DNA of 60,004 nucleotides, counting the filler, from Squatina squatina (lineage: Eukaryota): assembly GCA_031763465.1 (NCBI GenBank). It is 3 parts of 3 records of this genome, joined end to end, with 100 filler letters (N's around TTAATTAATTAA, not from the genome) between each part and the next. Parts side by side here need not be neighbours in the genome. Positions count along the whole stretch, not along the records: positions 1 to 23,285 come from JARFOE010000004.1; 2 more parts are not named here. One strand, 5' to 3'. Positions 1 through 58,345 of this stretch are shown piece by piece. Positions within the stretch are counted from its first letter, which is position 1. Each line of letters opens with the position of its first letter. The notes beneath the pieces were generated by a model. It was given only the letters and a program-made list of their open reading frames with translations. It searched no databases and was not told where the DNA came from. A program made the position numbers and the translations under genes.

Positions 1-95
1 GTCCAGTTCTGACGAAGGGTCTTCGACCTGAAACGTTAACTCTGTTTCTCTCTCTACAGATGCTGCCTGACCTACTGAGTTTTTTTTCCAGCATT
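1..95 (+). mobile_element. Penelope-type terminal-repeat mini-element carrying a hammerhead ribozyme motif
   Basis: CTGACGAAGGGTCTTCGACCTGAAACGTTAACTCTGTTTCTC...CAGATGCTGCCTGACCTACTGAGTTTTTTTTCCAGCA is near-identical to the reverse complement of 2961-3058. Confidence 0.8.
5..41 (+). ncRNA. minimal type I hammerhead ribozyme motif
   Basis: Stem I AGTT(5-8)/AACT(38-41); core CTGACGA(9-15) plus extra A; stem II GGGTC/GACCT with TTC loop; GAAA(30-33); palindromic stem III CG; GUU cleavage triplet (35-37). Confidence 0.72.
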
Positions 96-1333: not shown

Positions 1334-2960
1334 ATTCACTGTTCTGCCACAGGCTGTGCTGTGGACACCTCCCCCCTCCCCGCCCCCTCAACCATACCCG
1401 GCACTCAATGTAATCGGTCAAATCAGTGGAATTGATAAAAACTTGGGCTTTTCTGCGGTAATATCACTGTTAAATACCCCATTAAATGTTAAGCCATGTT
1501 GGAATAGGTGTAAATGGGGTTTAACAGCGGATTGACTGCTAAACAAATGTTCTGACCCTGAAAAACTAATTTTTATATTTGTGGATGTCAAATTTGTCCA
1601 TAATAAAAATTACATTTTGTAAGAAACTTTAAAGAAAAAGTTTGTTCATGCTATTTCAGATTCTACCTTATCCCCCTGTGAGAGTCCCAATCTTTTTTTT
1701 GCTGTCTGGAACATTTTTAAAAAGTCTGGATCAAAGCAGCCACTCATTTCCTCGTTGCCCATTAGTGAGAATTCTGCAATGTGATTGGCTGCTTAGACAA
1801 TTTGTTGACATCACAGGCAACAGCATCACAAGGGATTCCCAATACAGAACACCAACCTCAATTGAATGTCGAAAAAGGCAAACTTGTGCCACAGGGATCG
1901 CGAGATTGCTGCGGGCAGCTTCCTTTTGGGGCCAGTGGTGAGTGTCTTTGCTTTGCCGCTGACTGCAAATTATGGGACATTGTTTCTGGATTTTTTGTTA
2001 CTTTTCTGTGGAAAGATATTTGGAAAAAGTTACTTCGAATGGTGAGGTTTTTAAAAGCAGTGTATATTCTCTCTAGTAGTTTTGACAAAAGGTGGTTAAG
2101 ATGGCACGTTGCTTCCACCAGATACTAAGCAATAAGAGATTTGGCTGGGTGAGACGTCTTTCACATTATGTTGGAAAAAACCCTTTCATCTCTGTTGAAC
2201 TGAGAAGGAGAGGCTTTTTGATATAGTGAGAGGCTTTTAAAAATGACTGCATATAGTGACACTAGGAGTCCCGGCCAGAATGGAAATGATTGGGTAATTC
2301 CTCCATCAATGAAGCCTGGGGAGAACACACTGTTGTAAGTGACTGGGATTGATTTTACACATGCAGTTTGTATTATGTAACTATCCTCCACTCACTGCAT
2401 TTTGCTGGAGAAATAATCTTGCTTTTATGGGGATACTTTGCTGTAGTTTCAGCCATGAGTTCTGTTTGCTGTAGTTGGTAGATACTGTGTTTAAATTGCT
2501 TTAGACATTGTTTGCACTACTAAGTCCTGCTATAAATTCCACCCTGCCTCCATCTCATTGGCTGACATAGTGTTGTCAATACTCACTTCGTTCAAAAATG
2601 GAACAGAGACAATAAAAATGCATTCAGGCAGCGAAGTGCTGCGCTAAGATTGAAATGATGTCACCTTGCAGGGAGAGGAGGCTCTGCCCTAGGTTTGTGG
2701 GACAGAATCTAGAGGATCAGTCAATTTTAAGTAAAACCAGGCAACCCAGCAAGATACGGTAGCATGGCATGTTAATTGTTTTACCTTAGTATGCAGAGAT
2801 AAGTTTTGCCGTTTGAACTACATGACTCTGACCGCCTCTGCTCTGTATGTTTTCACCTTTCTGTAAAGCCACTTATTGATTCAAAATTAAGCCTTGTGGT
2901 TTGGACTGGTACATCAATTGACAGACTTCTTGGAACAAATCTGACAACTTCTAATAGTCT

Positions 2961-3058
2961 ACAAACAAAAATTGCTGGAAAAACTCAGCAGGTCAGGCAG
3001 CATCTGTGGAGAGAAAAACTGAGTCAACGTTTCGGGTCGATGACCCTTCGTCAGAACT
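2961..3058 (-). mobile_element. Penelope-type hammerhead mini-element flanked by a 15-bp direct repeat (probable TSD)
   Basis: Minus strand reads AGTT-CTGACGA-A-GGGTC-ATC-GACCC-GAAA-CG-TT-GACT; AACTTCTAATAGTCT occurs at 2946-2960 and 3055-3069. Confidence 0.85.
3022..3058 (-). ncRNA. minimal type I hammerhead ribozyme motif
   Basis: Intact CUGACGA and GAAA core, perfect 5-bp stem II GGGUC/GACCC, stem I AGUU/GACU, GUU triplet. Confidence 0.75.
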
Positions 3059-3384
3059 TCTAATAGTCTTTCTGTCAGCTAGAGCAGAGATGCGAGATAA
3101 CTTGAAGTCCTATTTGGAACTGAGTAGTGGTTAGGACAGCCACTGCGGCAGTGTTGGAGACGAATCGTGTAAACAGGTCGTGGTTAAGATGCAAGTCAGA
3201 ACAGCTTTGGAAGAAATTTGAAAGTGCTGTCTATACTCCCTTGGTATAGATAAGTATTGTGACATTGGAATGTCCTTGGCTAACACCAGGTTTTATGAAA
3301 AGTTTGAGAGCTGAACTTGACCCTAGAGTCTGATATATTTCTTAAAACAATTTGAAGTGGTGCACAACAATTTAAAGTTGCCAG

Positions 3385-4349: not shown

Positions 4350-5146
4350 NNNNNNNNNNNNNNNNNNNNNNNNNNNNNNNNNNNNNNNNNNNNNNNNNNN
4401 NNNNNNNNNNNNNNNNNNNNNNNNNNNNNNNNNNNNNNNNNNNNNNNNNTGAGGAGGACTTTGCATTACGACTGGGCTGGCTGCACCGTTGTCTTGTCCG
4501 TATCCGGTGCTGAGGTCGATGTCGGGTTGTCCGTCCGATTTTTATCATCTTGTTTCTCATAGCGGTTTGTTACAACTGAGTGGCTTTAAGGTTAAGTATT
4601 TTGCATTCAGTGTAATTATGCATGAAGTTTCCTGCTCTTTTAGTGTGATTGCCATTGTAACTGCAGCAGGATATAAGGAACACAGTTAGTTAAACAGTGT
4701 GAAGTTTTCCTGGGGAGGGGCATCGTCATTCCACAAGATTGTGGTTAGTGGTTTGGATAGGAGAAGCGTGGGGGGATATAGTGGTTGAGGAAGTGCTTCG
4801 CCTTGTGAGAGTGAAGAATTCCTTGAATTTTGCCTTCAAGTATGCTTAAAGATTGAATGTGCTCACATGCAAACATTTGAAAACAAAATTGCGTGGGAGG
4901 TATGGTGGTACAACATGCTGGAGCTCGAGCTTCCTGCACCACAGCTCTTGACCATGCCACTGAGTGGAGGCCAGGCACTTGCATGATACTTGGGGCTGCA
5001 CCAAAAAGATGATCTGCATATATATGATTGCAAATTACTGCTAAAANNNNNNNNNNNNNNNNNNNNNNNNNNNNNNNNNNNNNNNNNNNNNNNNNNNNNN
5101 NNNNNNNNNNNNNNNNNNNNNNNNNNNNNNNNNNNNNNNNNNNNNN

Positions 5147-5430
5147 TAATCCAGTCTTTCTTTTCCTCTTTATTTCTCTTTTTGTACCTGATTTGCATTG
5201 AATTTACACTTCCTTCTCTGTCCTTGCGCTGTAAGTTTCATAATTCTTCAATCTGATTGGTTAAGGCGATACCCAGTTGCTTGCCCTGTTCACTCAGGTC
5301 CCAGATGCCCGGTATTCCTCGCTGCGCCGTTATCAGCTCGCGCTTTCAGTAACTTGGCAGGCAAAAATTTTAAATGCCTAAACGTGCAAGGGAACACATG
5401 TAACTGCCCTGCCACAGCAAATTATGGCCC
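5147..5430. mobile_element. MITE/DNA transposon end fragment
   Basis: CpG-richer segment ending GCAAATTATGGCCC, the reverse complement of the GGG-N-AATTT type termini seen on other elements here. Confidence 0.45.
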
Positions 5431-6195
5431 ATTATCAAGATGTTCAGGAGCACTGAGAGAGTCTGCTGGATGTTGTTTTTTCACGACTGTGATTATGGTG
5501 TTGGAGGCACCACCATTCGGACTCCTGAAACTCTGCATTTATTCTAATCTTATTTTTTAAAAAGCCATAAACATTTATTGGAAATGTTTTGAATTTGCAA
5601 TATTTATATTCACAAATCGGAGCTGAAGTCGCCCTTTATTGCAGCAGTGGGTGGGGTAATGAGGAGGAGGGAGACAAAGCATGTTCCTGGTGATTCAATT
5701 CAGCTGTGGTTTGCCACCATAAACAAGGGACTAAAGCGATCAGCCTGAATTAAGTGCATTCAAATTCAGGCATCTGATGAACTCTTCTCGTATTTGAGCT
5801 AGTTGGGGATAGTCCAGAAGCTGATTTTAAAATGAAATAATGCTTCAAAAATTTGCCACAAGAAAGAATTAAAACATTCAACTAGATTTTCTTTTAATCA
5901 ACTTTCTATTGAAGTAATGCATTGAGTAGTTGGTCATGGATTTTTAACCCTTCATACTAGAAAAGACTTCTTAGACTATTAGCTTTCAAAGCTGCTGTTA
6001 ATGTGGGGCCAAAAGTAGTTGCTATAACAACCTGATACCCTCTGATGTGAATGCAATTACAGCCTTAAAATCTGAAATCCAAACAGAAAATGCTGNNNNN
6101 NNNNNNNNNNNNNNNNNNNNNNNNNNNNNNNNNNNNNNNNNNNNNNNNNNNNNNNNNNNNNNNNNNNNNNNNNNNNNNNNNNNNNNNNNNNNNNN

Positions 6196-6460
6196 ATTTA
6201 TAGGGTGAGTCCAGTTGAATTTCTGGTCAATGGTGACCCCTAGGATGTTGATGATGTGGGATTTGGTGATGGCAATGCCATTGAATGTCAAAAGGAGGTG
6301 GTTTGGCGCGCTCTTGTTGGAGAAAGTCATTGCTTGGTAGTTGTATGACGCAAAAGTTACTTGCCACTTATCAGCCTTATAAAGCCTGGAGGTTTTGCTG
6401 CATGTTGGCATAGACTGCTTTGGCACCTGAGGAATTGCAAATAGAACTGAACACTATGTA
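6196..6460 (-). mobile_element. non-LTR retrotransposon RT C-terminal fragment (clade uncertain)
   Basis: ADKWQVTFA..QAMTFSNK..LTFNGIAI..INILGVTIDQKFNW, the typical post-YADD LINE segment. Confidence 0.8.
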
Positions 6461-7346
6461 TCCTACCAGTACTATCTATTTTATAGTATTGAAACAGTGA
6501 TTGCCGATTCTCTGGTATGTTACTACTTAGTGCATTTGATTAAATGTCTCATTCTGTATTCTTGTTGCTTAATCAAAACAGAAAAGTTTTATCCCCTGTA
6601 GACCCCTGTCAGATGCAAATTATTGCTTGAGAACACTACAAAATCACAAAATATTTCTTCCCTTTTATTGCATTACAGCATTTTCAAAGATGAGTTTTAG
6701 GTTAATTTTAGTGCCGGAATGCTGCTACATGTCTGAGGTTAAATTTCCAATTGGTATTCTGAACATGTATAGAACAATGACAAACTGAACTTACATAAAT
6801 TAGTTTTACTTCACTGAGAAAAGGTGTGCCCTTACCATTATACATTATTCCAGGAAGCTCTGTTATAGTAAATGTTTCGATTGTCCCATTGGAGAAGATT
6901 CCTTATATCAATGACAAAGCTTTGAAGTAGATCCTTTCTTATTATATGACCTATTAAACACAAAAAAAGGAACAGTAATATCATTGTGTTGCATGCTGCA
7001 TGCTTTCTCTGTAAACTCAGTCTGCCTTTCATGAGTCAGGTTAATGTTATGCAGATAAGGAAACATGGAAGGATTTGCTGCATGGAGAAAAGAAATGTCA
7101 GTCAGTGAAAACTAAACCGAGCTGATATGATGTTACCACATCCATTCTAGGCCAGAAGCGCTCAATGCACAATATCAAAAACCGTATTTGTTAACACAAA
7201 CTTGCACTAGATAGAGCAAGGACTAGAGTACACTTTGTACTTTGTGGGGTGTAACACAAACACCTGGAAGGTTAATTTTTGTAAACAAAATCTGATTGTT
7301 ACTGAAACCTGTAGCTCGCATTACATGTTTTTTTTGTAATTTACAG

Positions 7347-7487
7347 GAAGAGTGCTTTCTCAATCTGGAGGTGCCAATCAGCAGAGTCTGTGGATATGAC
7401 ACACCTTTTCCACACATTTTTGAACCCTTTTATATACCAGACAAATGGAAGTGCTTTGATGCTGTGCGGAAAATGATAAATTATTGA
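7347..7487 (+). CDS. BCKDHB: branched-chain alpha-keto acid dehydrogenase E1 beta subunit, last coding exon (46 aa plus stop)
   Basis: Acceptor ttttttgtaatttacAG (7345-7346), phase 0; [46 protein letters not shown] is nearly identical to the vertebrate BCKDHB C-terminus as I recall it. Confidence 0.97.
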
Positions 7488-7493
7488 GTGGGA

Positions 7494-7502
7494 CAGGTAA
7501 GA
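7494..7502 (+). other. consensus 5' splice donor 9 nt after the BCKDHB stop (putative 3'UTR intron)
   Basis: TGA-GTGGGACAG|GTAAGA, with the intron starting at 7497. Confidence 0.7.
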
Positions 7503-10500
7503 AACTTCAACATTTCGAAAGGATATGGGTTAACATCTGAACTATAGATAGAATAACAAAATCTGCAGGTGAGTTACAAGGCACTCATATAATCAGTGAT
7601 TCGCCAAAGGTGATCAGGTGTTATAATGAAGTTTGAGTAATTTGACATTTATTAGCCACCAAGATTCAAGCTGCAGCCTTTGGCTCACTCTGTCATTTGT
7701 TTTATGTAATATGTGCTGCTGTTATTGTAACAGTCAAACTTACATCATTTGAAAAAGGGCGGAGCTAAAAGGGTAGCTCCAATTTCAATCTGATTGTCTT
7801 CNNNNNNNNNNNNNNNNNNNNNNNNNNNNNNNNNNNNNNNNNNNNNNNNNNNNNNNNNNNNNNNNNNNNNNNNNNNNNNNNNNNNNNNNNNNNNNNNNNN
7901 NTTTACAATCAACATCCACATGAAATTAATTTTGGATGATCTCAGTATGAGACTATCATAGTTCTAAGGTTTCCTTACTCACTGTCTCTCGATTCATTAA
8001 CTAGTCTGTTCAGCGCTTGGAAACTATTTCCTGATTCCTTACTACATCAGTTTTATATTTGCCCTCTCTCCCAGCACAACATTAAAACTGCCCTGTGCTT
8101 ACCACCTCTCCACCATGTGTTCACTGGAATAGCTGGTAACATGGCATAGTACTGATCTTCAGTGCAACCACGTTAGTTGACCTCAGACTTGATTTCTTGT
8201 CACATCCAGCTCTAGTCTACAACTGTAAATCTACTGAAAATTAATGGGCAGGTAAAGACTCGTTAAAAATCAAGTTTCTTTGTGATCAATGTGGAGTGTA
8301 AATATACAAGAGGTGTCAATCACTTAAGAGTGAACCTCTTTCGACATTTGGGGACTCAATTAATTTCAAAGTGCAGTCCTTGTGAGTACGCTGCTCAATG
8401 GTAATCGGTGCTCTGTTTTCAGAAAGCATCAAACCGAATTGTTTATCCATATGTATAAGCTTCCATCACTGAAATAACTAACACGGGAAGTACTGAACAT
8501 CTCTTACAATTCAAGACTATATTTTTTGCATTATCCAGAGATCAATGGACACCTGGTAATAATTACACGGTAATAATGTAATCGCCTGAGCAGCTAATAA
8601 TTACCATCTGGANNNNNNNNNNNNNNNNNNNNNNNNNNNNNNNNNNNNNNNNNNNNNNNNNNNNNNNNNNNNNNNNNNNNNNNNNNNNNNNNNNNNNNNN
8701 NNNNNNNNNNNNACTACCAACATGGCGCTATCCAATTGGGCTCCCTATAGGTTTGTTACTAAAGCACTAATTAATGTACTTTTTAAATTATGCTCTTAAT
8801 TGTATTTGTAGATGGCATCATATTACTTAATGATAATATTATTTAAATATTTCTTTGTCATTCATATATCATTTTTATTATATTATTGTAGAGTAAAGAT
8901 TCAACACCCACTATGTTAAATTAAACTTAAAATTTAATGTGGCCATGGTCCCTTTAAGGATCCTGGTTGAAAATGCATGACGAATGACTTCACCAGACCC
9001 GCTCCATCTAATTGGGCCGGGTAACGTGCTGGCTGGGCTTAATAGGTCCCATCAAGGTAAGTTCATTTTCAACAGCGGGATGCCAGCAACGGGGTCGTAA
9101 CCCGCCATGGACACTGGCCACACCGGACCCACCAAGGTAAGCAAAGTTCTGGCCTTAATGTTTCAGCTGGGACCCCGACTTGATCAAAACCTCAACCTAT
9201 CTTTCTCTTTACCACTATTGATTGAGTGCTGTGTAATTCTGGAATTTTCTGTTTTTGTTTTAGGTCTTCAGCATTTTATGATCTTGCTTTTGCCTCATTT
9301 TACCGAAGCCGTTTTTAAGACAATGATGGCGGGCACTGTAAGTAGAGTTAGCATTTAAGGTGTCACTTGAGTTTTCAGTACTTTTTTGAGCATTGACTTT
9401 TAATAAGGGATCCATCAGTTGTCAGAGGTTTAAAATAAGCTAACACATCTGTGACTTAAGAATGTGCATAACTGTTTGTGTAAGAGGCCCGAGTTGGGAT
9501 ACCAACAAAAGGCAAGGCTGAGGCCAAGCAACATTGGCTCAAAAATGTACTCTGCAGCTATTCCGATTTACTCCTTTTGAAAGGTTAAGTGCCTCTAAGA
9601 ACATACGCATTAGTCTTTTGAAAAGTTAATTACTTATACTAAGGTCAGCTGCAAAGTTTCGGTTATAAAACGAAAAAAAATTAAATGCATTTTATTTTCA
9701 ACTTTAAGATAAGAGCACTCCCCATGCCTTGCAACGACAGGAGCTAAATATTTCAATTGCTGCCTTGATTCCAAAGTATTATTGATTATTTACACCGTAA
9801 ATCACAGTAGTCCCATCACTGCCTGTTTCCCTCATAAGAAAGAAGACAGTTGTCAGGATGACCAGGTGCAGAGCACTTTTGAGTGTCTTTTTTAATTGGG
9901 TGTTACAAAGCTTGAGCCAAGTCCCAAAATCTCCAACTGCTGCTCTTCCCTGTTTTTATGCACTTGGTGTGCAGCTGCTCTGGAAACACTTGAATATTTG
10001 ACCCCCACTGCTGCTGGAGGTGTGGCATCCGACTCCTTTGTATTGACAGTGTGTCGTCACACACCTGACTATTGATGTCAGAGCACCTTTACTTTGTGGC
10101 TCTGTGAAGCAAAACACAGGCTCTGAGGTCAATGGAGAGTAAAGTGCAGTGGGGTGGGAAATGAGCATCTGACCTGAATTGGGGCTCACTTATTGGGATA
10201 CATCTGCACACCCCTGTTATTTTCTTCACACATTATAACCTGTATAACTTGTAACTGTTACGAATGAAAATGGACTAAGTTTGCAGTCAGCTTGATAGTA
10301 TTCACACATTTTGATTTGATTAGGGCTGCTGAATATTGTTGAGCGAAGCATAAATCTGTGTTCGCCCACCTCAGTCCAACTTGGGTACTCGGTTTTGCTT
10401 ACAGCATGCGAAGTGATGCATGAGAGATCTACTTAAATTGAAAAAAAAATCTGGACTAAATATTAACCTCAATTAGAATCTCAACACTGGAAGGGTACTT

Positions 10501-11582
10501 TGCAGCACAATAACATCATCAGATGTACTGGTGCTGCAGACACAGCTGGAGAAAACCTACAGCCAATTCCTGTTCATAAGAATGGTAAGAGACAAGACAA
10601 ACAGATCCAATTACATGAGATTAGCATTTCTTTTCAAAAGGTGCAATAGAAATAAATCCTTAACTGATATGAATAAAAGGTTGCGACCGGATCATTGACA
10701 ATATTTCATGAAGCAAATTGTCATTTGAGGACACACCACAGGAAACCACTAGGCCTAATCCCAATAATATTTTCTGTGTGTTATAAATCATCAGACCCAG
10801 ACATTACCAACTGTGCAAACAAATGATCCAGTTTGCTCACAGCCCATTAACCTTTTCACGGACATCGTCATAAAGTGTGGTTTGAATGAAATGTTAACGG
10901 GGATGGCATGTAACTACGCTGAAGTACATTGAGGGTNNNNNNNNNNNNNNNNNNNNNNNNNNNNNNNNNNNNNNNNNNNNNNNNNNNNNNNNNNNNNNNN
11001 NNNNNNNNNNNNNNNNNNNNNNNNNNNNNNNNNNNNAGTATGTCAGTTAGGTATAGCGCAAGAGTGCAGATAAAATCTGATCACTTTAGTGTATGTTTGA
11101 CATCTTTTACAGCAGCAAAAGAAGGTTCAGTATAAAAATACAAGTCTTCCGATCATATTCAGATAAGCTTAAGTAAAACAACCTTATCCGATTCTGAATG
11201 AGCAAAGCCGGACTTTTGGATCTGGCCTCACTGAGTCTGGTTTGTTCAGACTTCCACCCTGGATTTGCACCTCCTCCTTAGTTTTAAATCCAGGGCTATT
11301 AAATTCTGAAAACATGCAACTGGATTGCCAAGAAATGTTATGCTTGGATAAGGATTTCTAAAAGCTTCATATAAAAATGATCAACTTACAATACTTGCAA
11401 CTCAGCATTTTCCAAAATTGAGTCCACAGCTGGTATCTAAATGAATACAGTGCAAATCCTTTCATTAAAAAATCAGTCTGCAAACTCCAATTTTGAAAAA
11501 GGGAATGCACCATATACATTAGAATTCCCATTGACTACATTGCAAAGCATTTCCAGCAAGATCAATCAGATCAGATCTTGCT

Positions 11583-11773
11583 GGTGTCAGCAGTGGTTCA
11601 GTGGCAGCACTCTCACTTCCTCAACCATGAAGGTTGTGGGTTGAAGTTCCACTTCTGAGTCTTGAGCACATAATCTCGGCTGACACTCCAGTGTAGTGCT
11701 GAGGGAGTGCTGGGCTGTTGGAGGTGCTGTTTTTCTGATGCAACGTTAAACCGAGGCCCCATCTGCGGTCTCT
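11583..11773 (+). mobile_element. tRNA-derived Deu-domain SINE (SacSINE1-like), 3'-truncated
   Basis: A-box-like TGGTTCAGTGG and B-box-like GGTTGAAGTTCC, then Deu core GCTGACACTCCAGTGTAGTGCTGAGGGAGTGCTG..GGAGGTGC..GTTAAACCGAGGCCCC. Confidence 0.85.
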
Positions 11774-11913
11774 CTTAATAATTCGGAATCGCGGGTTGAG
11801 TCTCGGTGCTTGTNNNNNNNNNNNNNNNNNNNNNNNNNNNNNNNNNNNNNNNNNNNNNNNNNNNNNNNNNNNNNNNNNNNNNNNNNNNNNNNNNNNNNNN
11901 NNNNNNNNNNNNN

Positions 11914-11990
11914 GAGAATGGAATGGAGTCTTTACAGGAAGCGGGGTGGGAGGAAGTGTAGTCCAGGTAGCTGTGGGAGTCAGTGGGCTG
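11914..11990 (-). mobile_element. Penelope-like element RT thumb fragment
   Basis: Minus frame reads PTDSHSYLDYTSSHPASCKDSIPFS, the KPT-YL-SxHP-K-IP motif of PLE reverse transcriptases. Confidence 0.85.
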
Positions 11991-12029
11991 TTTTTGGATA
12001 GCCTAAAGCACTTCATAACCAACAAATTA

Positions 12030-12389
12030 TTTTTGTGGAGCAGTTACAACAACAGCCAATCTGATCACAGCAAGGCTCACATACAGCAAAAGATCAGATG
12101 ATCAGTTTTTTGTTAGTGGTGCTGATTGAGGAAGGAATGTTGGCCAAAACACCAACAGAATCACTTGCTCTTTCTCGAATAACGTTGCAGGAATCTGTTG
12201 CATTCATTAAATCAGGCAGATATGGTCTCAGTTTAATGTCTCAGCTGAAAAGTAGCACCTCCGGCAATACATCATTTCCTCATTAAGGCACTGGTGTGTC
12301 AGCCTAGGTTATCTGTTCAACTGGAGTGGAGATTGAATGCACAGCTTTCTGACTCAGAGGTGAGGTGGTACTAATTGAGGCAAGTTGAT
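12030..12389 (-). mobile_element. Deu-domain SINE (SacSINE1-like), older diverged copy
   Basis: Reverse complement shows tRNA-like head, GCTGACACACCAGTG..GGAGGTGC..ATTAAACTGAGACC core and downstream body. Confidence 0.75.
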
Positions 12390-13113
12390 TATAGTTACAG
12401 AGGAAAAAAGGATTGAAATATCATCTTGCACAAATGTTACAAATTTTAAAAGTCTGTTTCTTGCTTTTTTCACAAAGCTGTTTGGCAGCAATTAAAAGGA
12501 AAATTAATCTTCAATGAATTACTCAATTAGCTTCAATTTAATCCAAATAAAAAGCAATTTCACTCTGTCTTTCTGATTTACTGACATTTCAATTTTGGTA
12601 ATTTAAAATGGAAAATGTTCTCAATTAGTTTTAAAGTTGTGAATGTTTTTCTAAAGAAATAACCCTGCCATTATTATTTTAATTTCCCTATCTTTTATGC
12701 TGTTCCTTCATTAACCTCCACTTAACCTTGTGTTCTATTTAAAAATAAGAGACCGCTGTGCTTTTTAAGAATATCAGTAAGTTTTCCCATTTAACCTGTT
12801 TCTACGGTGTTGTGATCATTAAAAAAAATAATTAATTATTATGGATTCTATATATTAAATACTGTAACACAGTGACAACCTTAATAGAGAGTAACCTTTT
12901 TAGAGGATTGGTCTTATTAAAGGAACTGCTGAGTGCAGTTGTTCAATCAGTCACCGATATTGCTTTGCACTAGACCGTCCTTCCTCTTTAATTGGATTTA
13001 TAAAAGTTAATATNNNNNNNNNNNNNNNNNNNNNNNNNNNNNNNNNNNNNNNNNNNNNNNNNNNNNNNNNNNNNNNNNNNNNNNNNNNNNNNNNNNNNNN
13101 NNNNNNNNNNNNN

Positions 13114-13195
13114 TATTCAACTGAAGCATCTCTTCCTATTGTATTGCAACCCACTTGTGATAAGGCCAACATTCCATTTGCCTTTTTGATTGTCA
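13114..13195 (-). mobile_element. CR1 LINE RT fragment
   Basis: IKKANGMLA motif. Confidence 0.6.
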
Positions 13196-13574
13196 ATGTG
13201 CATGATGATCACTTCATGCATTTCACCAAAGTGTGCCTTCTGAAATTCAAGGTACTGAATTGTTTCTGGCAGAGAAATTGTGAAGGGATTGTGTTGCCAT
13301 AATGCTAGAAGCTTGTTTCCTGAGAGAGAAAGATTATTCCCTGTAAACAGAGCTGTGGAATGTAACTCTAGATTTTCTGATTGGCATGTTTTAATGGTGA
13401 CAGCAACCTTTTAAAATAAATAGCTTAAAGTAAATATGTTTTTGCCCGTGCAAAATAAAGCTGATTGGAAAATCTGAGGTGCAAAGTCAGTTGCTTCTTT
13501 AAATCACAGAGAATCGATCAAACTTTTCTCAACATCCTTGGTCAGCTTTATGGCATGGTATTTGACCTCCAATT

Positions 13575-14081
13575 CATAAGACCATAAGAAATAGGAACAG
13601 GAGTAGACCACTCGGCCCCTCGAGCCTGCCCCACCATTCATAAGATCATGGCTGATCCGACATTCCTCAAGTCCACTTTCCTGCCCTTTCTCCATAACCA
13701 TTGATTCCCTTACTGATTAAAAATCTATCTACCTGAGCCTTAAATATACACAAGAACTCAGCCCCACAGCTCTCTGTGGCAAGGAGTTCCAAAGAGTCAC
13801 AACCCTCAGAGAAGAAATTCTTCCTCATCTCAGTCTTAAATGGGTACTCCCTTAATCTGAGATTATGCCCTCTGGTCCTAGACTCTCCTATGAGGGAAAA
13901 CATCCTCCCAGCATTTACCCTGTCAAGCCCCTCAAGAATCTTATATGTTTCAATAAGATTGCCTCTCATTCTTCTGAACTCCAATGAGTACAGACCCAAC
14001 CTGTTCAACCTTTCCTCATAAGACAATCCCTCCATACCCGGGATCATCCTAGTGAACCTTCTCTGAACCGCCTCCAATGAA
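13575..14081 (-). mobile_element. CR1 LINE 3' end (ORF2 C-terminus, 3'UTR, octamer tail)
   Basis: LEAVQRRFTRMIPGMEGLSYEERLNRLGLYSLEFRRMRGNLIETYKIL..SRTRGHNL..MRKNFFS; tail CATAAGACCATAAGAA on the + strand. Confidence 0.95.
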
Positions 14082-14181
14082 NNNNNNNNNNNNNNNNNNN
14101 NNNNNNNNNNNNNNNNNNNNNNNNNNNNNNNNNNNNNNNNNNNNNNNNNNNNNNNNNNNNNNNNNNNNNNNNNNNNNNNNN

Positions 14182-14370
14182 GAAAGAAGCAGTACTGGAC
14201 CGAGAAGTGGAGGAAGTGGTACTGTAAGGAAAGGGAACATTTAGGAAATAGTGACCATATAAAAATTGAAAAGGAGAGGAAATATTCAAAGATACAGATG
14301 CTTGACTGGAAAAAAAAAGCAATTTCAATGAGATAAAAAGGCAACCAGCCCAAATAAATTGATGAAAATG
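14182..14370 (+). mobile_element. degraded CR1-type APE endonuclease end fragment
   Basis: GAACATTTAGGAAATAGTGACCAT = EHLGNSDH, the SDH motif. Confidence 0.55.
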
Positions 14371-14399
14371 TGCAAACATAATACTGTCAAATATTTAAC

Positions 14400-14720
14400 C
14401 CCACAGTACTGGCAGATGTGGCACCACAGTATATAGCTCAGCTGGTGCAATATCCAGTAGTACGGTGGTGATATATAGGACAGCTGGTAGCACATCTAGC
14501 AGTACTGTGATGGTATATAGACGTGGAACCAGCTGCCCTATATATCACTATGGTACTGCTAGACCTGGTATTATACTATTTGTCCTCTGCACAATTACAG
14601 TGATGCTAGACTTGACATCAGTTTTCTTATAGTAAACCATAGTAGTACTACTAGACTTAGCACCAGCTGTCCTATGCACAAGCACAACATTACAGTACTT
14701 AGTACCAGTTGTCATTACCA
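14400..14720. repeat. degenerate ~42-bp minisatellite with an internally inverted block
   Basis: Unit approx CAGTACTGCTAGATGTGGCACCAGCTGTCCTATATATCACCA occurs forward (14400-14435, 14518-14720) and reversed (14440-14515). Confidence 0.7.
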
Positions 14721-16216
14721 TAATATCAGTAGACTGATATGGCCAGTCCTACCCTTGACTAGAATACCACTAGAGTACAATTGAGCAGTAAAAGCAGTAA
14801 TTAAAATACCGCTAAATTTTGATGTAGACTGCCCTTTCATAACCACAGTACCGTGAGACATGCCACGTGCCCAGGGTTTGATCTGATATAACTTGCTTTG
14901 CAATGTAGCTTTAGAATTTAACTCCTTTTGTAGCCCTTTATTCCGAACTAGCCCATGAGACCCACTATTAGTACAGGCAGCAAACAGCAGATGATTGACT
15001 CTTAAGAGTAAATATCTAGAAGGGATTGATGTTTCATAAACTGTGTGGTCTNNNNNNNNNNTAATATTTAAAGCAAACTTTTTAATGAAACTGTCATCGT
15101 GAAATGAAAATGAAAGTAATGAGAAAATGAATCTTTAGCTTTACATACAGAGGAAAATACATGCACGTTTATACAGGTGTCTTTTACCAATTTAGCTATA
15201 GCAAACTGGGAAAGTGTCAAAGCTTCAATATAAATCACTAAATAATTTTTTTTTTTGTCCTCTATGGAAAATATTTCTGTCTCAGTGCACTGCTGGAAAA
15301 CTAAAAAAGATTTCTCACAAACACAAAACAACATTCAAAGTTTTCAGAATTTTAGAGGCACTGTTATGGGTAATGTGTGATTGTGCATTTAAAGATACAG
15401 ATCGGCAAAGTGACATAGTCCCAATAATAGATCCAAGTGTATTCTTTCTACGGTTCCTCGAACTTCCACCCATTAATAAGCCTGTGTAATTTCACTAAAT
15501 ACTTTGCATGAAATACTATTCTGGATGCCGAGCATGCTTTTTTTAAAAATAAATTATAATAATTTAATAANNNNNNNNNNNNNNNNNNNNNNNNNNNNNN
15601 NNNNNNNNNNNNNNNNNNNNNNNNNNNNNNNNNNNNNNNNNNNNNNNNNNNNNNNNNNNNNNNNNNNNNNTATTTCACTCAGCCAAGAGCTTGGAAAAAT
15701 TGATATAAGCACGTTTCAGATGATATACGATTGAAGAATCACATCAGTCAAACCACAATAAAGCAGGTGAATTTATTTCAGTTTAGTTGATATCGGAGTA
15801 CGGACAGTTAAATCTGCTTCCAAGAAGACATCTGTGTCAATAAATCATAAATAATTTAAACAATACTGTGGAAAAAAAAGAAAGGTTTATTGGGGCAGTC
15901 CATCTGGCAAAAGAATAAACAGCCTGCTCCATCCCAGCTTCCTCGGCCATGGCGGACAGCTTTCAATTACCAGCCATCCATCAAGGTTTCAGACTGTGGC
16001 TCGTCCTAGTCCAACAGTGCTGAGTGGCTATGAGGAGAGCCACCTCATATTTCATCTTCCAAAGGACAAGGTCACTACTCTGTGGCAATAATCCAACAGA
16101 ACAAAGACTATGACCACTTCTGCTGTCCTTGGTTAGGCTCCCATGCAAACTTTGTTTATTTTCCTTGTCTTCTGTCAGGTTTTTGAAGGAGAAACAGAAA
16201 TGCTTTGGAATTCTTA

Positions 16217-16404
16217 GGGGGATGAAATTCCGTTGCGCCCCATTTGGGGACGGTAACATCCGGGAAGTGGGACGTTTTGCAGCAGGCGCGGAAGTCCCGC
16301 CCCGTTTGAAAAATTTGGATTACCGCCCCCGAAAAGGAATGGAGCGCAAAATAACACGTTCCATTTCCTTTCTGGGGCGGTAGTGCAGCAGACAGGTCAG
16401 GAGC
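16217..16404. mobile_element. CpG-rich MITE-like DNA element end, cut by a gap
   Basis: Abrupt GC/CpG rise starting GGGGGATGAAATTC after TTA. Confidence 0.55.
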
Positions 16405-17175
16405 NNNNNNNNNNNNNNNNNNNNNNNNNNNNNNNNNNNNNNNNNNNNNNNNNNNNNNNNNNNNNNNNNNNNNNNNNNNNNNNNNNNNNNNNNNNNNNNN
16501 NNNNGGAAGTCAATTGTGGAAATCGGGAGGGGTTGGTGGCTGCCATCGGTCTGATCAGCGTGGATTCTCGGCAGACTGATCCACTTACACAACTCCTGGA
16601 ATAATGCCTCTGAAATCTGCAGAATGCGCAGTGGAATTTCCATGGCACCATCAGTGTTCATTTGAAAGAAGCCTTTTGAAGTGGCCAAGAACCACGGCAC
16701 TCGACAATTCTTCTTCAGGCTGCGTAACACTAGTCACCTTAACTCGGCCAGACTGTCAGCTAGACAGCCTCAGGGCAGGAGAGAGAATGAAGTGAAATTT
16801 AGGGATGAGTATTCCAGGTTTTTGCTTCTCCTTTGGATCAGCCTAAACTAATGATGAAAAAGGAGTAGTTCAATTTAAAATGATTGACATGTGCCTCTAG
16901 GTACTTTCCAACTCAACATTTTTTTTTAAGATGGAAACACTCGGCGTGATGACATCTGGAAAGAGAAATTTCTATCTGCTTTTATGTGTTGTGGCTCCAT
17001 ATATTTCTCATTCTAGAAAGATTCGTTGGCCCAGGTTTTGCTGGAGCGGGGTATCTCATGGCGTGCTCCGTTAGTNNNNNNNNNNNNNNNNNNNNNNNNN
17101 NNNNNNNNNNNNNNNNNNNNNNNNNNNNNNNNNNNNNNNNNNNNNNNNNNNNNNNNNNNNNNNNNNNNNNNNNNN

Positions 17176-17222
17176 CTGAGGTCGTGAAAAGGCACGATAT
17201 AAATGCAAGTCTTTCTTTTTTT
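17176..17222 (+). mobile_element. SINE/L2-type 3' tail
   Basis: CTGAGGTCGTGAAAAGGCACGATATAAATGCAAGTCTTTCTTTT. Confidence 0.7.
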
Positions 17223-18049
17223 CTGTTGGTGCTCCATCACCCATCGGGAGCTACTTTTGGGGCCTTGCCAGCGAGGCAAGCGGCCTAAATTGTATCTTTT
17301 TAAGATGGGCAAACTGCCTTTGGAGTCTCGCCCAAAAATTGTTCATGAGACCTGAGGCCCAATTTCGGGTGAGACTCTGGCCTCCATGTTGGCATACGCA
17401 CTTTGTGCACTGTCTCAATTTCAGGTCCAAAAATGGGCCAAAAGGAATCTCCATCCCACGCTGTACAATAACACTGTTGCGGATAGCTACTATATGGTTA
17501 GTTACTATATTTGGAAGGATCAAACAGCTAATTGCAAAACCTCTTGCCTCATCTCGTGAACATCTTGAAATGTAATCAATGCTTTAAGATATTCAACACT
17601 CAAAGTTTAAATGAGTATTTGGGTGTGACTTATAATATTTATCTTGTATTTTGGTTTGAGGTTTTGGCACTGGAGTAATGAGCCAGGGTTTCCCACTGTG
17701 CCTCTGGTTTGTGTCGACAAGGGAATGTCACTCAGCACACACTCCAAATACCAAAGCGCTGCGATGCCTCAGGGTTCATCTGCACCAAGCAGTCAGTAAT
17801 CAAACAGATGTCTGCTTTGAAACCTCCCAAACAAGCCAAATTCTAGACAAGAATAAAGCGATCATAGCTGGAGCTAAAGGAATGTAATCGGGATTTACTT
17901 GGGCCCGTTCTCCATGCGGAGCACGCATACCTTCAGTTGCCAAAAATGCTTGGACGCAGCTGGACAACGTAAAGAACGAAGATTAAGCAATATATTGGGG
18001 AAAGAAAAACATTCACCGTACCTGTAATGGTTTAGTAGGTAAATACAAT

Positions 18050-18270
18050 GCTCTGTGCGAAGATAAGTGATCTCAGCTGGGATGGTGATTCAAGAGCTAA
18101 CAGTTAGCTTCAGCATCTCCAAACTAGGGAGGGGTAAACTTGCCCGGGGTCCTATTCCTGATTGGTACCGACCGAGCCTCGCTGAACCGCATGAATAACC
18201 ACACCAGAGTGTGCCGTGAGGTTCCTCACTGTAATTTATTCCACTTGTACCCATTATCTAAGCTCACACA
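18050..18270 (+). mobile_element. ancient SINE fragment (AmnSINE2-like by recall), same family as 56885-57230
   Basis: Collinear blocks shared with the 56.9-kb copy: GATCTCAGCTGGG, CTAGGGAGGGG..GCCCGGGG..TCCTGAT, TCTAAGCTCACA. Confidence 0.5.
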
Positions 18271-21200
18271 GTACAACCCATGAACATACTATTAAATGAT
18301 TAATGGATTCGGTATAAAAATGAGGACTTTGAGAAGTAGACTACACCAGTAAGTTTAAGGCTGTGTTTAAGCAAGAATTGTAGCGTTAATGTAAGAATGC
18401 TTTGAAGCAAGAGCTGATTCTGAAGTGAAGCAATATGATAGTCCTACCTCCTCCTCTCTCTGGAGGCAGATTGTATCCTCAATCCAGATTTATGATCTAA
18501 CTTTAGCTTTGATAAACCGATACAACAGTTGAAAGCATAAATGCAGTCTAAATATTGCAATGTACTCAGAGTTTGTAATCAAATCACAGGACCATAGCTT
18601 GGACTATTTATCTTTTTGATCAAGCGTTTTGTCCAAGATATGATCACCTCGCTGAACTCGCTCACCACGGTTCAACATCCATTCCTTTATCCAATGTATT
18701 AACTTTCTCTCCTTCCCCCACCTCCATTGTAAAGCAGCTCGGGACATTTTCTACATAACANNNNNNNNNNNNNNNNNNNNNNNNNNNNNNNNNNNNNNNN
18801 NNNNNNNNNNNNNNNNNNNNNNNNNNNNNNNNNNNNNNNNNNNNNNNNNNNNNNNNNNNNTGGAGGAAAGAACAGTCCAGGCCAGATGCACCCATTAAAG
18901 GTAATTAGACTTGTCACAACATGATGATGTTTTAATGATCTGATCATATAAAAATAGATGACTTTTTTTTAAAATGTGAAAGCTGGAAGATCTGAAGTAA
19001 AAATAGAAAATGCTGGAAATACACACCAATTCCATCAGTACCTGAAAAAAGAGTGAGGGGAATATTAACTTTTGAAATGGAGACCGTACTCGCACATGAG
19101 GTGCATTTCAGGGTGGATTACAGTGAGAATTCTTGTGAGCTGCTCCCCAACTACTGTCACTATTTGCATTAGGTGGGTGCATGCAACTTAAAGGAGGTTG
19201 ATAGGAAAAAGTCTTCTGATGTATTTTAGCAATGCCATTGCTTTCCAGGCATCCAGCATTGCTAAGTAGAATGAAGGCAGGGGAATCACTAATAAATTCG
19301 GGCTCATTGCACTGTGCTGCAACCGTAATTCCTCAAGATTGCTTGCCATGCAGCTGTAGCAAGTCCCTCTGGGCTATTTGTGACCCTGAATTTCCAAATG
19401 TGGTTGTTGCTTAGTGATGAGACAGATTTACAGCAGCTGTGATTAAACTGCATGCTGGGTTGTGGGTTAGTCCTTAACCCATAAACAGTCAAAATTACCC
19501 CATAAAATAACCTGGATCTGCCTGCGGGCCAACATATACAGGAGTTAGATCTAACTTTTATTTGGCACGGCCTCAAAGGACTGAAAGTAAATTTGATCCC
19601 GTAACATATCACATTCTCAATATCAAGGTTGCAGTATTTATTTAACCTTTGTGGATAAGGCTTTGAGTTCTTTTTATTGTGAGAATCAAAACCAATTTAG
19701 CAAGTAAAAAAAGACAGGCTGGATTTACATATATTTCCTTCAAACTGTGTTAGGTGCATTAAAATGCCATTCCCAGCTTAATAAAATATTGCCATTACAT
19801 TCTTCAGATTCTGTAATTACATTTTTTAAAAAGTCATCTAAATTATCTGTAGTATATTGTGCTGTTATTGGACAGTATTTCAATTACTCTAAAACAGTAA
19901 TTATTAGCTGTGCTGATACTTTGAAATCCTCCTTTGTGTAACTAGCACACAGTTCTGTTAAGTCAGCTCGTAACCACTTTATTTCAATTCTGCATTCGTT
20001 TCGCAGATTGACCTTTAACAAGGCCTTAAAGGTTCTTCTGAATCATTCTTGACTTATACCCAGTTTAACATGGGGCAAAGACTCATTGGGAAGGATGTTG
20101 GTATCCTTTGCCCCCATTTTTCAGGCATAAAACTGAAATCAGACTAATTTAGCAGTGTGACAGCCTGAGCCCAATATTGATTTGTGGGGCCCATTTCTTA
20201 AGCATCCGCAACTCAAGCATTGATGATGTTAATGAAGGGCCCTAATAACTTTTGAACAACTCCTTTACCAAATTAACTATCAATGAAGGGGACAGGAATA
20301 TTTTTTTCTTGTTGAGTTTCCTGTGGAGTTGTGACCAGTGCTAACTCCTTTCCCTGAGAATGCCAATGTCTATCGATCCTTCGTCCTTTTGGTTTGGTCG
20401 TGCNNNNNNNNNNNNNNNNNNNNNNNNNNNNNNNNNNNNNNNNNNNNNNNNNNNNNNNNNNNNNNNNNNNNNNNNNNNNNNNNNNNNNNNNNNNNNNNNN
20501 NNNTATTTCCAGCATTTTCTGTTTATATTTCAGGTTTCCAGCATGCACGGTCTTTTCCTCACCACGACTAGGTGCTCCTGTCTGCGGTCCTCAGAGCCTC
20601 GCACATCACTCATTTCAGTAATATTTTACTCAAAAGAAAAATAGATGAATGACTAAAACCCTTTGTCCCAAGGAAAATCTTGCTAGAGGCCTGAAATGTG
20701 TTGACCTGCATTATTTGTATTATTTGATTGCCTGTTAAAATCTGCATTCGAATATGGCCAGGGCAATTTTGACGTGAGTCTCTTTTTCCATCACCAAGAC
20801 ACATGCAACCTTACACAGATTTAGCGAAATAGACTGCTGCTGCTTAAAGAATTGAAGCTTGAGGCACATACAGCAAACAGGTGATAGAGTTTCATAAATC
20901 AGTCTAAAAGATGTGGATCAAATAAGACATTTTTAAAAAGTTAGCGAATTTTTAGTGCCTTGATGGGAAGCCATAATTCATCCCACAAGTTTTATCAGCG
21001 TGGCCTCGGCTGGAGATTAAATGACACAGATCCTTATTTTGCACTCCTGCCCGAGTGGCAATCCTGGAACAAGGTGATATGTTCCTCATGTTAATACTTG
21101 AAAGTATTTGAGCACTGGCTGAAAGTTGATCTGTCCTGCTCTGTAGAAACTCAGCACCTATACTGGCGAGGAAGCTGTTGGATTTGAGGAGTGGACAAAG

Positions 21201-22109
21201 GCCAGCATAAACACTATGAAGGATGCATGTGGACAGGGGGATGAGTTGTTTCAGTTGCCTTGCAATCAATTTTTTTTCTTTGCAAATCGCAGAAACACTG
21301 AAGGATTTCTTTGCAAAGTCACAGAGCCTTCTGATTCTAAAGAACTGGAAAATTTTCTAAGTAAATAAACACCCGTTTGTAACTAAAGNNNNNNNNNNNN
21401 NNNNNNNNNNNNNNNNNNNNNNNNNNNNNNNNNNNNNNNNNNNNNNNNNNNNNNNNNNNNNNNNNNNNNNNNNNNNNNNNNNNNNNNNGTCTAAAGTGTG
21501 TTCATTGTGGAGGTGAGTGTGTGCTTGATCGCAAACAGTTTAATTGCTATCTTATGGGTTTGATGCCCATCCATCTATGGATGGACTAGCATTAGAAGTA
21601 CAGATAGGGGGAGTCTGACTTGCACTAAAATAGGCAGTCAGTCTGAAATGATGCTTTCTTTTGGGTTTTAGTAAATTTGCATTGGATTAGTTTGAGTTGA
21701 AATTCAGAGCATATAAAAGGTAGGTAAACCAATGCGTCTGACTCAGGGGCTGCAATCCATATAAATCCGAAGGGAATTGCATTACTTGGATCACTAAATA
21801 GGAACTCTATCATGTTCAACTACAAATTTGGTTTAAAGGTTGTACATGCTGTTGCAGCGTAATACTGTGGATCACCAAAATAGTCACTGAACTCATCGTA
21901 GCTCAGTAGATATATTAACTTTGACGTTTAAATGCACATATCTCGTTGCAATCGAAAGGTTCAATTTACAAGTTCATGATGACTCAACCTTGGCTGTATA
22001 TTTAGAACACGGAACCTGAGCATGCTGGTGCAGTTGTCAAAGCCTAAGTTGACCAGCGTCAGACATCATTTTTAATTAAATATTACTGATTGCTCAGGCA
22101 CTAAACCTG

Positions 22110-22368
22110 AGGGGTTCATTTTAACTTTTTAGGTGACCAACCAACAGAGCCTACAGACAGCTGCCCGTTCCGGCAGAGACGAGGTCGGAGCCTTTCTGAG
22201 GCCAGGGCCTCATTTGAGTAGAAACGGCTGTGGGAGGCAAACAAGCTTCCTGCTACAGCTCAGCGGATTCAGGCCAGCGCAATTACCGAGAGAGGCAGCG
22301 GCCACCAGGCTGTCAGCAAGGTGGGGAGGCTAAGGGGTAGCGGTTCTGATGGCACTGGCTCCGATTAC
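22110..22368. mobile_element. MITE-like DNA element end
   Basis: Starts GGGGTTCATTTTAAC, GC-rich body, runs into a gap. Confidence 0.5.
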
Positions 22369-23329
22369 NNNNNNNNNNNNNNNNNNNNNNNNNNNNNNNN
22401 NNNNNNNNNNNNNNNNNNNNNNNNNNNNNNNNNNNNNNNNNNNNNNNNNNNNNNNNNNNNNNNNNNNNGCATTCTGTTGCAATGTGAAAGATTTTCTCTT
22501 TGTGGCTATATCGTACATGACCACTTGCTCTCCCGTGGGTGTCTGACAAATTCCCCACAATTTAAAATTTGTATATTAGTTTTACTTTTACTGAGTTTTC
22601 TTTAGGTCCATGAGAAGCTGCTTTAAATCTTCCAACATTTTAGATTTGCAGCCCTCAGGAATATCTGCGTGTGTGGCTGCCCACAATTTTATTTTTATGG
22701 GCACTTTCCACTTCTTTTTGTTGCTTTTTCTGTTTTTTCATAGTGGTTGAATATTATTTCTTTTTGGTTTCCAGTTCAACTAAGTCTTTTTTGTTCTCCC
22801 ACTGATCAATGTGTACTCTTGCTTTGGGAAGGCAGTGAGTTTTGTGAATGTGATGCAGTAATGTAATCTAAATAATGAGAAAAAATGACAAGATTCCATT
22901 GATCATTCAACCACAGATTTGACAGCATTGTGTGCTTCAGCAAATAACAGCCATTTTAAAGCAGTGCAGCTCTCGATTCCACGGCCGGGATTTTCTGGGG
23001 TCCGTGTGGGCGCGACCGGAGGTGGGTTGGGTAGGAAATTTGAAAAAAATCAGAGCGGGTCGGTCCCTACACGCCTTTCTCTCTGGTACGTTTGCCGGTG
23101 TGGCAGTGACCCGAACAGCAGAGGCCGGCGAACTGATTCAAATCATTATCACCTTGTTGTCAGAACCTGAAGCCTACCTTTCAAATTTCCATGGCTGCTC
23201 GCGGGATTCACACAGCTCGGGAACCACGTCTGTCAGCCTAAGGCAAGAGTTGCATGGCCATTGCTCCAGCTGATTAGATGATAGTNNNNNNNNNNNNNNN
23301 NNNNNNNNNNNNNNNNNNNNNNNNNNNNN

Positions 23330-23341
23330 TTAATTAATTAA
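23330..23341. other. artificial scaffolding linker
   Basis: TTAATTAATTAA centred in N44...N44 (100 nt total); identical structure at 46376-46387. Confidence 0.9.
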
Positions 23342-23444
23342 NNNNNNNNNNNNNNNNNNNNNNNNNNNNNNNNNNNNNNNNNNNNATGCACCTCTCGCTT
23401 TCCCCCACCCCCGCAACCCTACGATTGTGCCTTTCTCCTTTCAG

Positions 23445-23956
23445 TTACCCAAGAACTGCAACCTGGCCAGGCAGTGGTGGAGATGCAGGAATTGCAACAC
23501 GAAGAAGGAAGTGATGCAGAAGACGCACCATCACTCAATTTCACACTCGCAGCCGCCAGCTCAAATATTGACACTCCGTGTGCTTTACAGGTTAGGTTAG
23601 ATGTGGTATCTGCACATGGTGAGTCACTGGGCATGAGTGGCCTACAACCAGGGCAGGGGGAAAGGGTAGCACAGATGCCTGCTTCCCAGAGGATGAGTTC
23701 ACACAGGAATTCTGTTGCACAGGACTCGGATGAGGACATCGATGGGGCGGCCTACAGAAGATGCCTTATGAATATGCACAATGAAATGCTTGGTGCATTG
23801 GTAGGCCTGCCAGAAAGTCTGAGTGCAATGTCAAGGAGCATGGAGGAGTCTGGCACCAACCTTGCACAGGGCTTTGCGCAGAGCTTGGAGCCCATCTTTT
23901 CCAGCATGGAAGTGATGGGCAACTTCATTAGTGCACTTTTGGACCCAACCATGATG
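23445..23956 (+). mobile_element. exon-like open frame, probably the C-terminal part of a Harbinger Myb/SANT accessory protein
   Basis: Acceptor ctttctcctttcAG at 23443-23444; ~170 stop-free codons with acidic low-complexity region then helical heptad-like MHNEMLGALVGLPESLSAMSRSMEES; embedded in TIR-like element. Confidence 0.55.
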
Positions 23957-58249: not shown

Positions 58250-58345
58250 GTCTGATGAAAGATACACACCCAAAACATCATAACTTATCTTTTCTCTTTA
58301 CAGATGACCGACCTGTATATTTCTGCATTTTCTGTTTTTATTGGG
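58250..58345 (+). mobile_element. decayed copy of the hammerhead mini-element
   Basis: TCTGATGAAAG..CCCAAAACATC..TTTTCTCTTTACAGATG..ACCTG..ATTTTCTGTTTTTATT is collinear with 1-95. Confidence 0.6.

What the first reader, a model, noticed from the sequence alone, without database searches (positions are those of the whole stretch)
2946..3069. ~95-bp non-coding mobile unit built around a hammerhead ribozyme, flanked by a 15-bp direct repeat
Seen: minus-strand AGUU-CUGACGA-A-GGGUC-AUC-GACCC-GAAA-CG-UU-GACU followed by ~60 nt of tail, between two exact copies of AACTTCTAATAGTCT; the right copy overlaps 4 nt of stem I. Established: Penelope-like elements carry minimal type I hammerheads with a palindromic stem III that can work as dimers, and an extra nucleotide after A9 is tolerated. 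Inference: this is either a solo terminal repeat or truncated insertion of a Penelope element, or a tiny non-autonomous retrozyme-like element mobilised by Penelope machinery. The second would be a compact ribozyme-SINE-like system.
Basis: partly seen in the sequence, partly recalled or inferred. Interest (0 to 1): 0.75.

Follow-up and report, generated by a model that had tools for sequence, protein, structure and literature searches.

The report
Truncated Penelope retroelement end with hammerhead
A 94-base insert, flanked by a duplicated 15-base target and missing from the same spot in three related organisms, carries a minimal hammerhead ribozyme motif and is likely the cut-off end of a Penelope-type jumping gene that is very common in shark genomes, so it is probably an ordinary kind of element.

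Summary
An exact 15-bp repeat (2946-2960, 3055-3069) flanks 94 bp whose minus strand carries an intact minimal type I hammerhead motif. It is a real insertion: contigs from 3 of 4 public runs (three organisms, two studies) skip the insert plus one repeat copy. It is not a closed unit. In all four runs the family (4,455-23,512 contigs laid) runs on past both ends of this copy and forms rare fold-back junctions at stem I, as Penelope-like elements do. Best reading (0.75): a 5'-truncated pseudo-LTR end of a shark Penelope-like element, joined by 4-nt microhomology and likely inactive. I found no link to a Penelope RT/endonuclease, tabulated no endpoints, and tested no cleavage; fold models favour inactive states. 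A self-propagating ribozyme-SINE is not excluded (0.12). Side result: a 3' splice-acceptor motif lies 22 nt downstream of the predicted cut, and bamboo-shark GLE1 gene models use it as a cassette-exon start. This scan reported such inserts before in two other shark-type genomes. Interest 0.27.

The parts
2946..2960 (.). Left copy of the 15-bp target-site duplication
   Evidence: only one copy at the empty site in X2, X3, X4
2961..3021 (-). 61-nt segment downstream of the hammerhead; this copy stops before the family's further extension
   Evidence: loose ends before 2963 in all four runs; longer form at window 20506-20560
3001..3021 (-). Polypyrimidine tract, CAG and ATG: 3' splice-acceptor-like motif
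   Evidence: shark host gene models join an upstream exon at this CAG|ATG
3022..3058 (-). Minimal type I hammerhead motif; predicted cut between 3026 and 3025 (GUU)
   Evidence: layout as in PMC4209133; activity untested; fold models favour a mispaired core
3055..3069 (.). Right copy of the duplication; 3055-3058 is shared by target and stem I (4-nt microhomology)
   Evidence: the family's continuation differs from the window from 3059 on (table 7)
5..93 (+). Second copy of the family (about 88% identical) with intact core; 5' side hidden by the window edge
20506..20560 (+). 3' part of a related copy with the longer tail; 5' part lies under an N run
58250..58342 (+). Decayed related copy (core start kept, stem II and GAAA lost)
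18975..19085 (-). Decayed related tail remnant; bounds approximate
7347..7487 (+). Host context: last coding exon of a BCKDHB orthologue; the insert lies about 4.3 kb upstream, antisense, likely in the last intron
   Evidence: Pfam Transketolase_C; match to the C-terminus of the branched-chain keto acid dehydrogenase beta chain 1dtw_B, E 2e-29; acceptor AG at 7345-7346

Best explanation
The 94-bp stretch is a retro-type insertion with a duplicated target site and an intact minimal hammerhead motif, and it is likely the 5'-truncated, now inactive pseudo-LTR end of an abundant shark Penelope-like element (PLE), not a self-contained unit. Shown: insertion into a single-copy 15-bp target; membership of a very abundant family that runs on beyond both ends of this copy; fold-back junctions at stem I in other copies. 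Inferred steps: a PLE RT-endonuclease nicked the target and began reverse transcription inside the PLE RNA, about 65 nt downstream of the hammerhead cut site (internal initiation, as shown for the anole Poseidon element). It copied through the uncleaved hammerhead and stopped at stem I, where the 4-nt cDNA end annealed to the target (microhomology), giving a net gain of 109 bp. The same stem I complementarity would let other cDNAs snap back and give the palindromic copies. The hammerhead is a passenger here. It lacks loop 3, so it would need a second copy and probably protein help to cut, and a lone copy without promoter or ORF is predicted to be dead on arrival.
For: Empty site: one contig each in X2 and X4 skips 2946->3055 (108 nt) and one in X3 skips 2948->3058 (109 nt), with both flanks aligned; X1 does not cover the flanks. 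Abundance: 4,455, 22,558, 18,152 and 23,512 contigs laid, with nearly all depth in 2951-3058. Continuation: loose ends behind 3058 in 88, 212, 321 and 204 contigs share a similar consensus in all four runs (agreement 0.43-0.58); loose ends before 2963 in 109, 990, 762 and 943 contigs share another (0.46-0.51). Window relatives end at different 3' places. Of 15 listed joints 10 are strand switches, and 7 of these link 3013-3021 to 3056-3062, seen in all four runs. Inverted 5' copies, palindromic junctions, optional 30-40-bp tails, 8-10-bp duplications and microhomology 5' junctions are described for PLEs (PMC3846280; PMC8557442). The motif has the listed PLE min-HHR traits: extra base after A9, G10.1-C11.1, palindromic 15.2-16.2, short helix I; most such motifs occur singly and are ascribed to truncated PLEs (PMC4209133). 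A subfamily consensus in X2 and X4 has UA for CG at 15.2-16.2, still self-complementary (agreement about 0.5). Internal RT initiation about 110 nt into the ORF from an uncleaved RNA: PMC11167929.
Against: No sequence link to a PLE RT or GIY-YIG domain was obtained: three protein searches, the profile search (14 hits; the 9 I fetched had no RT or endonuclease family) and window scans (150 of 178 stop-free stretches) found none. The upstream continuation is known for 30 nt only. Loose-end agreement of only about 0.5 means many copies may begin right at stem I; this copy, the fold-back joints and the 58.3-kb remnant all start there, which looks less random than plain truncation predicts. The fold-back joints rest on 1-4 contigs per row and run. 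The X2/X4 skip is 108, not 109, so the target is not identical there.
Confidence: 0.75

Rival explanations
1. A non-autonomous element of about 95-130 nt with fixed ends (ribozyme-SINE or monomeric retrozyme) that is transcribed and copied on its own by PLE proteins.
For: 5' junctions recur near stem I (this copy; 7 fold-back joints at 3056-3062; remnant at 58.25 kb). Very high abundance of the short region. Non-autonomous PLE derivatives are described (MRC1, PMC8557442; retrozymes, bioRxiv 10.64898/2026.07.22.740005).
Against: The family continues past both ends in all four runs; 3' ends vary in the window. No tandem array here. Cleavage of a monomer would remove the hammerhead's 5' half, so a cleaved RNA cannot template this insert. 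No promoter was identified (not searched for).
Confidence: 0.12
2. A PLE by-product with a fixed 5' end: reverse transcription starts at the internal site near the 5' end of a full-length PLE mRNA and runs off at a transcription start just upstream of the hammerhead, giving uniform short inserts without any separate element. This is a variant of the best reading, not of the SINE reading.
For: In vitro, product length followed the template's 5' end and RT started internally (PMC11167929); Penelope's promoter and start site lie in the pseudo-LTR (PMC2377424); 5' junctions recur at stem I.
Against: No transcription start data; no RNA run was listed. Stem I snap-back or microhomology explains the same junctions.
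Confidence: 0.09
3. Solo repeat left by recombination or deletion of a longer element, or loss of the insert in the relatives by recombination between the 15-bp repeats.
For: Solo pseudo-LTRs are described (PMC3846280).
Against: Both junctions abut a perfect duplication, and the copy lacks the family's upstream part. Three organisms from two studies all lack it, so one gain is simpler than several exact losses.
Confidence: 0.04

Closest known systems
Minimal hammerheads (min-HHR) in pseudo-LTRs of metazoan Penelope-like elements (Cervera and de la Pena 2014, PMC4209133)
   Same: Type I, intact core, extra base after A9, G10.1-C11.1, palindromic 15.2-16.2 without loop 3, 4-bp helix I, dispersed single copies in large numbers.
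   Different: Helix II is 5 bp (7-8 bp in the schistosome families); sharks are not named in the parts I read; no full PLE was tied to this family here.
Poseidon element of Anolis carolinensis, PAc (Frangieh et al. 2024, PMC11167929)
   Same: Hammerhead followed about 100 nt later by the insert's 3' end, with an optional longer tail; uncleaved RNA is the template.
   Different: No sequence comparison was possible (its sequence file could not be read). In PAc the ORF starts at stem II; here the ORF start is unknown and a splice-acceptor motif follows the hammerhead.
Non-LTR retrozymes (Cervera and de la Pena 2020, PMC7229834; Li et al. 2026, bioRxiv 10.64898/2026.07.22.740005)
   Same: Non-coding, type I hammerhead, longer target duplications, likely PLE-derived; one chondrichthyan genome has them (mean consensus 363 bp).
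   Different: Defined as tandem repeats with at least two hammerhead units and circular RNAs; this is a single 94-98-bp copy that begins at stem I.
Drosophila virilis Penelope intron beside its hammerhead (PMC4209133; PMC2377424)
   Same: A splice acceptor next to the pseudo-LTR hammerhead.
   Different: There the intron ends at the 5' end of helix I; here the acceptor motif lies 22 nt downstream of the cut site, so the whole hammerhead would sit inside the intron (inferred).

Membership tests
PLE minimal hammerhead (min-HHR) | Conserved core CUGANGA ... GAAA ... UH | tested here: met
   both window copies
PLE minimal hammerhead (min-HHR) | Extra base after A9, G10.1-C11.1 pair, palindromic 15.2-16.2 | tested here: met
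   against PMC4209133; UA variant
PLE minimal hammerhead (min-HHR) | Self-cleavage as a dimer or with protein | not testable with these tools
   Nearest-neighbour models rank the active dimer (-14.5) above the mispaired cofold (-26.3 kcal/mol); they ignore core tertiary contacts
EN+ Penelope-like element | RT plus GIY-YIG ORF linked to the pseudo-LTR | tested here: inconclusive
   No link; no genome held; short queries make these weak negatives
EN+ Penelope-like element | Target-site duplication with empty site | tested here: met
   (3 of 4 runs)
EN+ Penelope-like element | 5' truncation and optional 3' tail | tested here: met
   Family runs on past both ends; window 3' ends differ; the distribution was not tabulated
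EN+ Penelope-like element | Inverted 5' copies with palindromic junctions | tested here: met
   10 of 15 listed joints are strand switches, 1-4 contigs per row and run
Non-LTR retrozyme | Tandem array of two or more hammerhead units | tested here: not met
   Single copy at this locus; arrays elsewhere in the genome not examined
Non-LTR retrozyme | Circular RNA of unit length | not testable with these tools
   No RNA holder listed
Rfam hammerhead families | Covariance-model match | tested here: not met
Non-autonomous SINE-like family | Fixed endpoints and own lineages | tested here: inconclusive
   Ends vary, but 5' junctions recur at stem I

The most novel reading that the evidence does not exclude
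Shark genomes hold a very large class of roughly 95-130-nt inserts whose 5' end is set by hammerhead stem I and whose 3' end is set by internal RT initiation, propagating by PLE proteins. Because the hammerhead overlaps a branch-point-like motif just upstream of a working 3' splice site, splicing and self-cleavage would compete in the parent element, and sense-strand inserts seed new cassette exons in host genes such as GLE1.
Probability: 0.2. Interest if true: 0.62.

Novelty: new member of a known kind. Interest (0 to 1): 0.27.

Why it matters
As read here it is ordinary: one of very many truncated Penelope ends. Its use is practical. It is a clean presence/absence marker with a shown empty site, and the family offers thousands of natural junctions for testing the internal-initiation model of PLE insertion in vivo. 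If the splice acceptor beside the hammerhead is used by the element itself, it would suggest a role for PLE hammerheads (sorting spliced mRNA from unspliced template), an open question since cleavage was not needed for insertion in vitro (PMC11167929). It would also make the family a source of new exons in sharks.

Tried and rejected
No whole genome is held, so no copy table. Rfam: no hammerhead hit. Pattern scans: none in viral contigs or metagenome contigs; none, then 3, in genome contigs; the three are bacterial 22-23-nt matches that do not extend and were dropped as chance. Sequencing runs: no RNA holder listed, which is no evidence on expression. Protein searches for a parent ORF: none; 14 hits, of which 5 (P0001, P0002, P0005, P0008, P0011) were short multi-stretch matches that I did not fetch, and 9 were read-throughs of element copies without RT/EN families; 12 hits, none a PLE protein; self only. 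Atlas, structure and complex tools were not used. The family's upstream motif is absent from the window; a scan for short RT/GIY-YIG motifs recalled from memory found nothing convincing. No duplications around the 19-kb and 58-kb remnants. Table 6 (shared ends) was empty, but contigs cannot show such ends. Summed depth was not used as a copy number, as the tool warns. Lunse et al. 2017 on dimer cleavage is not held and is recalled only. That GUU cleaves more slowly than GUC is recalled, from no call. Literature searches listed no paper describing this shark family or exonisation by PLE pseudo-LTRs; subscription papers, Repbase/Dfam, bioRxiv supplements, supplement file 1 of PMC4209133 and the PAc sequence file were not seen and may hold it.

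Full report
Observation. The repeat AACTTCTAATAGTCT lies at 2946-2960 and 3055-3069, exact and not extendable, with 94 bp between. My hammerhead descriptor hits only this copy and a second copy at 5-93 (mean 0.015 in resamplings). Rfam has no matching hammerhead model.

Setting. Read-through translations of the family occur in whale shark, bamboo shark and white shark gene models, so the window is likely from a shark or close relative. The last coding exon of a BCKDHB orthologue lies at 7347-7487 on the plus strand; the insert is about 4.3 kb upstream and antisense, likely in the last intron. The window holds four more related pieces: 5-93, about 19.0 kb, 20.5 kb and 58.3 kb.

It is an insertion. 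Ten runs were listed, all with small word shares; I laid four of them. One contig each in X2 and X4 (organisms B and D, one study) skips 2946->3055, and one in X3 (organism C, another study) skips 2948->3058, with both flanks aligned. X1 does not cover the flanks. So 3 of 4 runs show the empty site with one copy of the target. The skip is 108 nt in X2 and X4 and 109 nt in X3. The family's continuation differs from the window at 3059, so the structure can equally be read as a 98-bp piece with an 11-bp duplication plus 4 nt of microhomology.

It is not a closed unit. 4,455-23,512 contigs per run were laid, almost all on 2951-3058. In all four runs, loose ends behind 3058 (88-321 contigs) share a similar consensus, and loose ends before 2963 (109-990 contigs) share another; 24 of 535 loose-end rows were shown. 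The family therefore extends upstream of the hammerhead and past this copy's 3' end. Agreement is only 0.43-0.58, so these are mixtures of copies that continue and copies that stop, and I could not count them. In the window, 3' ends differ among pieces. Ten of 15 listed joints switch strand, and 7 of them link 3013-3021 to 3056-3062, as expected if cDNA folds back at stem I; each rests on 1-4 contigs per run.

Comparison with Penelope-like elements. Minimal hammerheads with these traits are described in PLE pseudo-LTRs and as many single copies ascribed to truncated PLEs (PMC4209133; abstract, results and discussion read; no shark term in the supplement files searched, file 1 not searched). 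Heavy 5' truncation, inverted 5' copies and optional 30-40-bp tails are PLE traits (PMC8557442, passages), as are 8-10-bp duplications, palindromic junctions and microhomology 5' junctions (PMC3846280, passages). In the anole Poseidon element RT starts inside the RNA 111-118 nt into the ORF, whose start overlaps the hammerhead; uncleaved RNA is the main template and the hammerhead cuts only with protein (PMC11167929; main text read; supplement 2 gave labels only). Here the 3' end lies 94 nt from C3 and 65 nt from the predicted cut, the same layout. Retrozymes are defined as tandem arrays (bioRxiv 10.64898/2026.07.22.740005, parts 1-3 of 5 read; PMC7229834, passages); this locus is not one. PMC6155905 and PMC2377424 were seen as passages.

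What is missing. I could not tie the family to an RT or GIY-YIG ORF, so PLE membership rests on structure. I recall that the upstream sequence in sharks follows a GIY-YIG C-terminus, but that comes from no call. Against plain random truncation, 5' junctions recur at stem I: this copy, the fold-back joints, and the 58.3-kb remnant.

Is the ribozyme alive? Untested. The core is intact, and a subfamily consensus keeps a self-complementary dinucleotide at 15.2-16.2 (UA for CG), which fits selection for dimer pairing in the parent. But in this copy the pair next to the cut is a U-G wobble, and models favour mispaired states: monomer -10.8 against -8.2 for the hammerhead-like fold, two strands -26.3 against -14.5 kcal/mol. 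These models omit core tertiary contacts. The insert spans the cut site, so its template was uncleaved (inference).

Side result. A polypyrimidine tract, CAG and ATG lie at 3021-3001, 22 nt after the predicted cut, with a branch-point-like motif overlapping stem I (the motif consensus is recalled). In Chiloscyllium plagiosum GLE1, isoforms X1 and X2 carry a 20-residue cassette that begins at this ATG and matches the element's frame, and X3 and X4 lack it. Two whale-shark models join at the same place. These are gene models; I saw no RNA evidence. A search for such exonisation listed no paper on it.

Verdict. A real, shown insertion; most likely (0.75) a truncated, inactive end of an abundant shark Penelope-like element. 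Rivals: self-propagating ribozyme-SINE 0.12, fixed-start by-product 0.09, solo repeat or loss in relatives 0.04. Two earlier notes of this scan reached a like reading on other genomes; they are not independent evidence. New member of a known kind; interest 0.27.

Noticed in passing
window 3001-3027 (-): Splice-acceptor motif right after the hammerhead; bamboo-shark GLE1 X1/X2 and two whale-shark gene models start an exon at the family's CAG|ATG.
   Followed up: partly
window 5-93 (+): Second copy with intact core, in sense orientation to BCKDHB, so its acceptor motif faces the host transcript.
   Followed up: partly
window 7347-7487 (+): Last coding exon of a BCKDHB orthologue.
   Followed up: yes
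window 2696-2789: In X2 and X4 these 94 bases are replaced by 91 unlike letters, while X3 aligns across them; a diverged patch or a small rearrangement.
   Followed up: no
window 46430-48070: Degenerate tandem array about 1.6 kb long with short units and long open frames on the minus strand.
   Followed up: no
window 13571-14386: Fragment that looks like a CR1-type LINE 3' end (label recalled); a related 88-bp piece at 26526-26613.
   Followed up: no
window 16317-16387: Hairpin of about 70 nt with weak, sub-threshold miRNA-family hits, probably a MITE-like palindrome.
   Followed up: no
window 45506-45574 and 46092-46160: 69-bp inverted pair, 84% identical.
   Followed up: no
window 23387-23956 (+): 190-residue stop-free stretch with no Pfam hit, possibly a transposon-derived ORF.
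   Followed up: no
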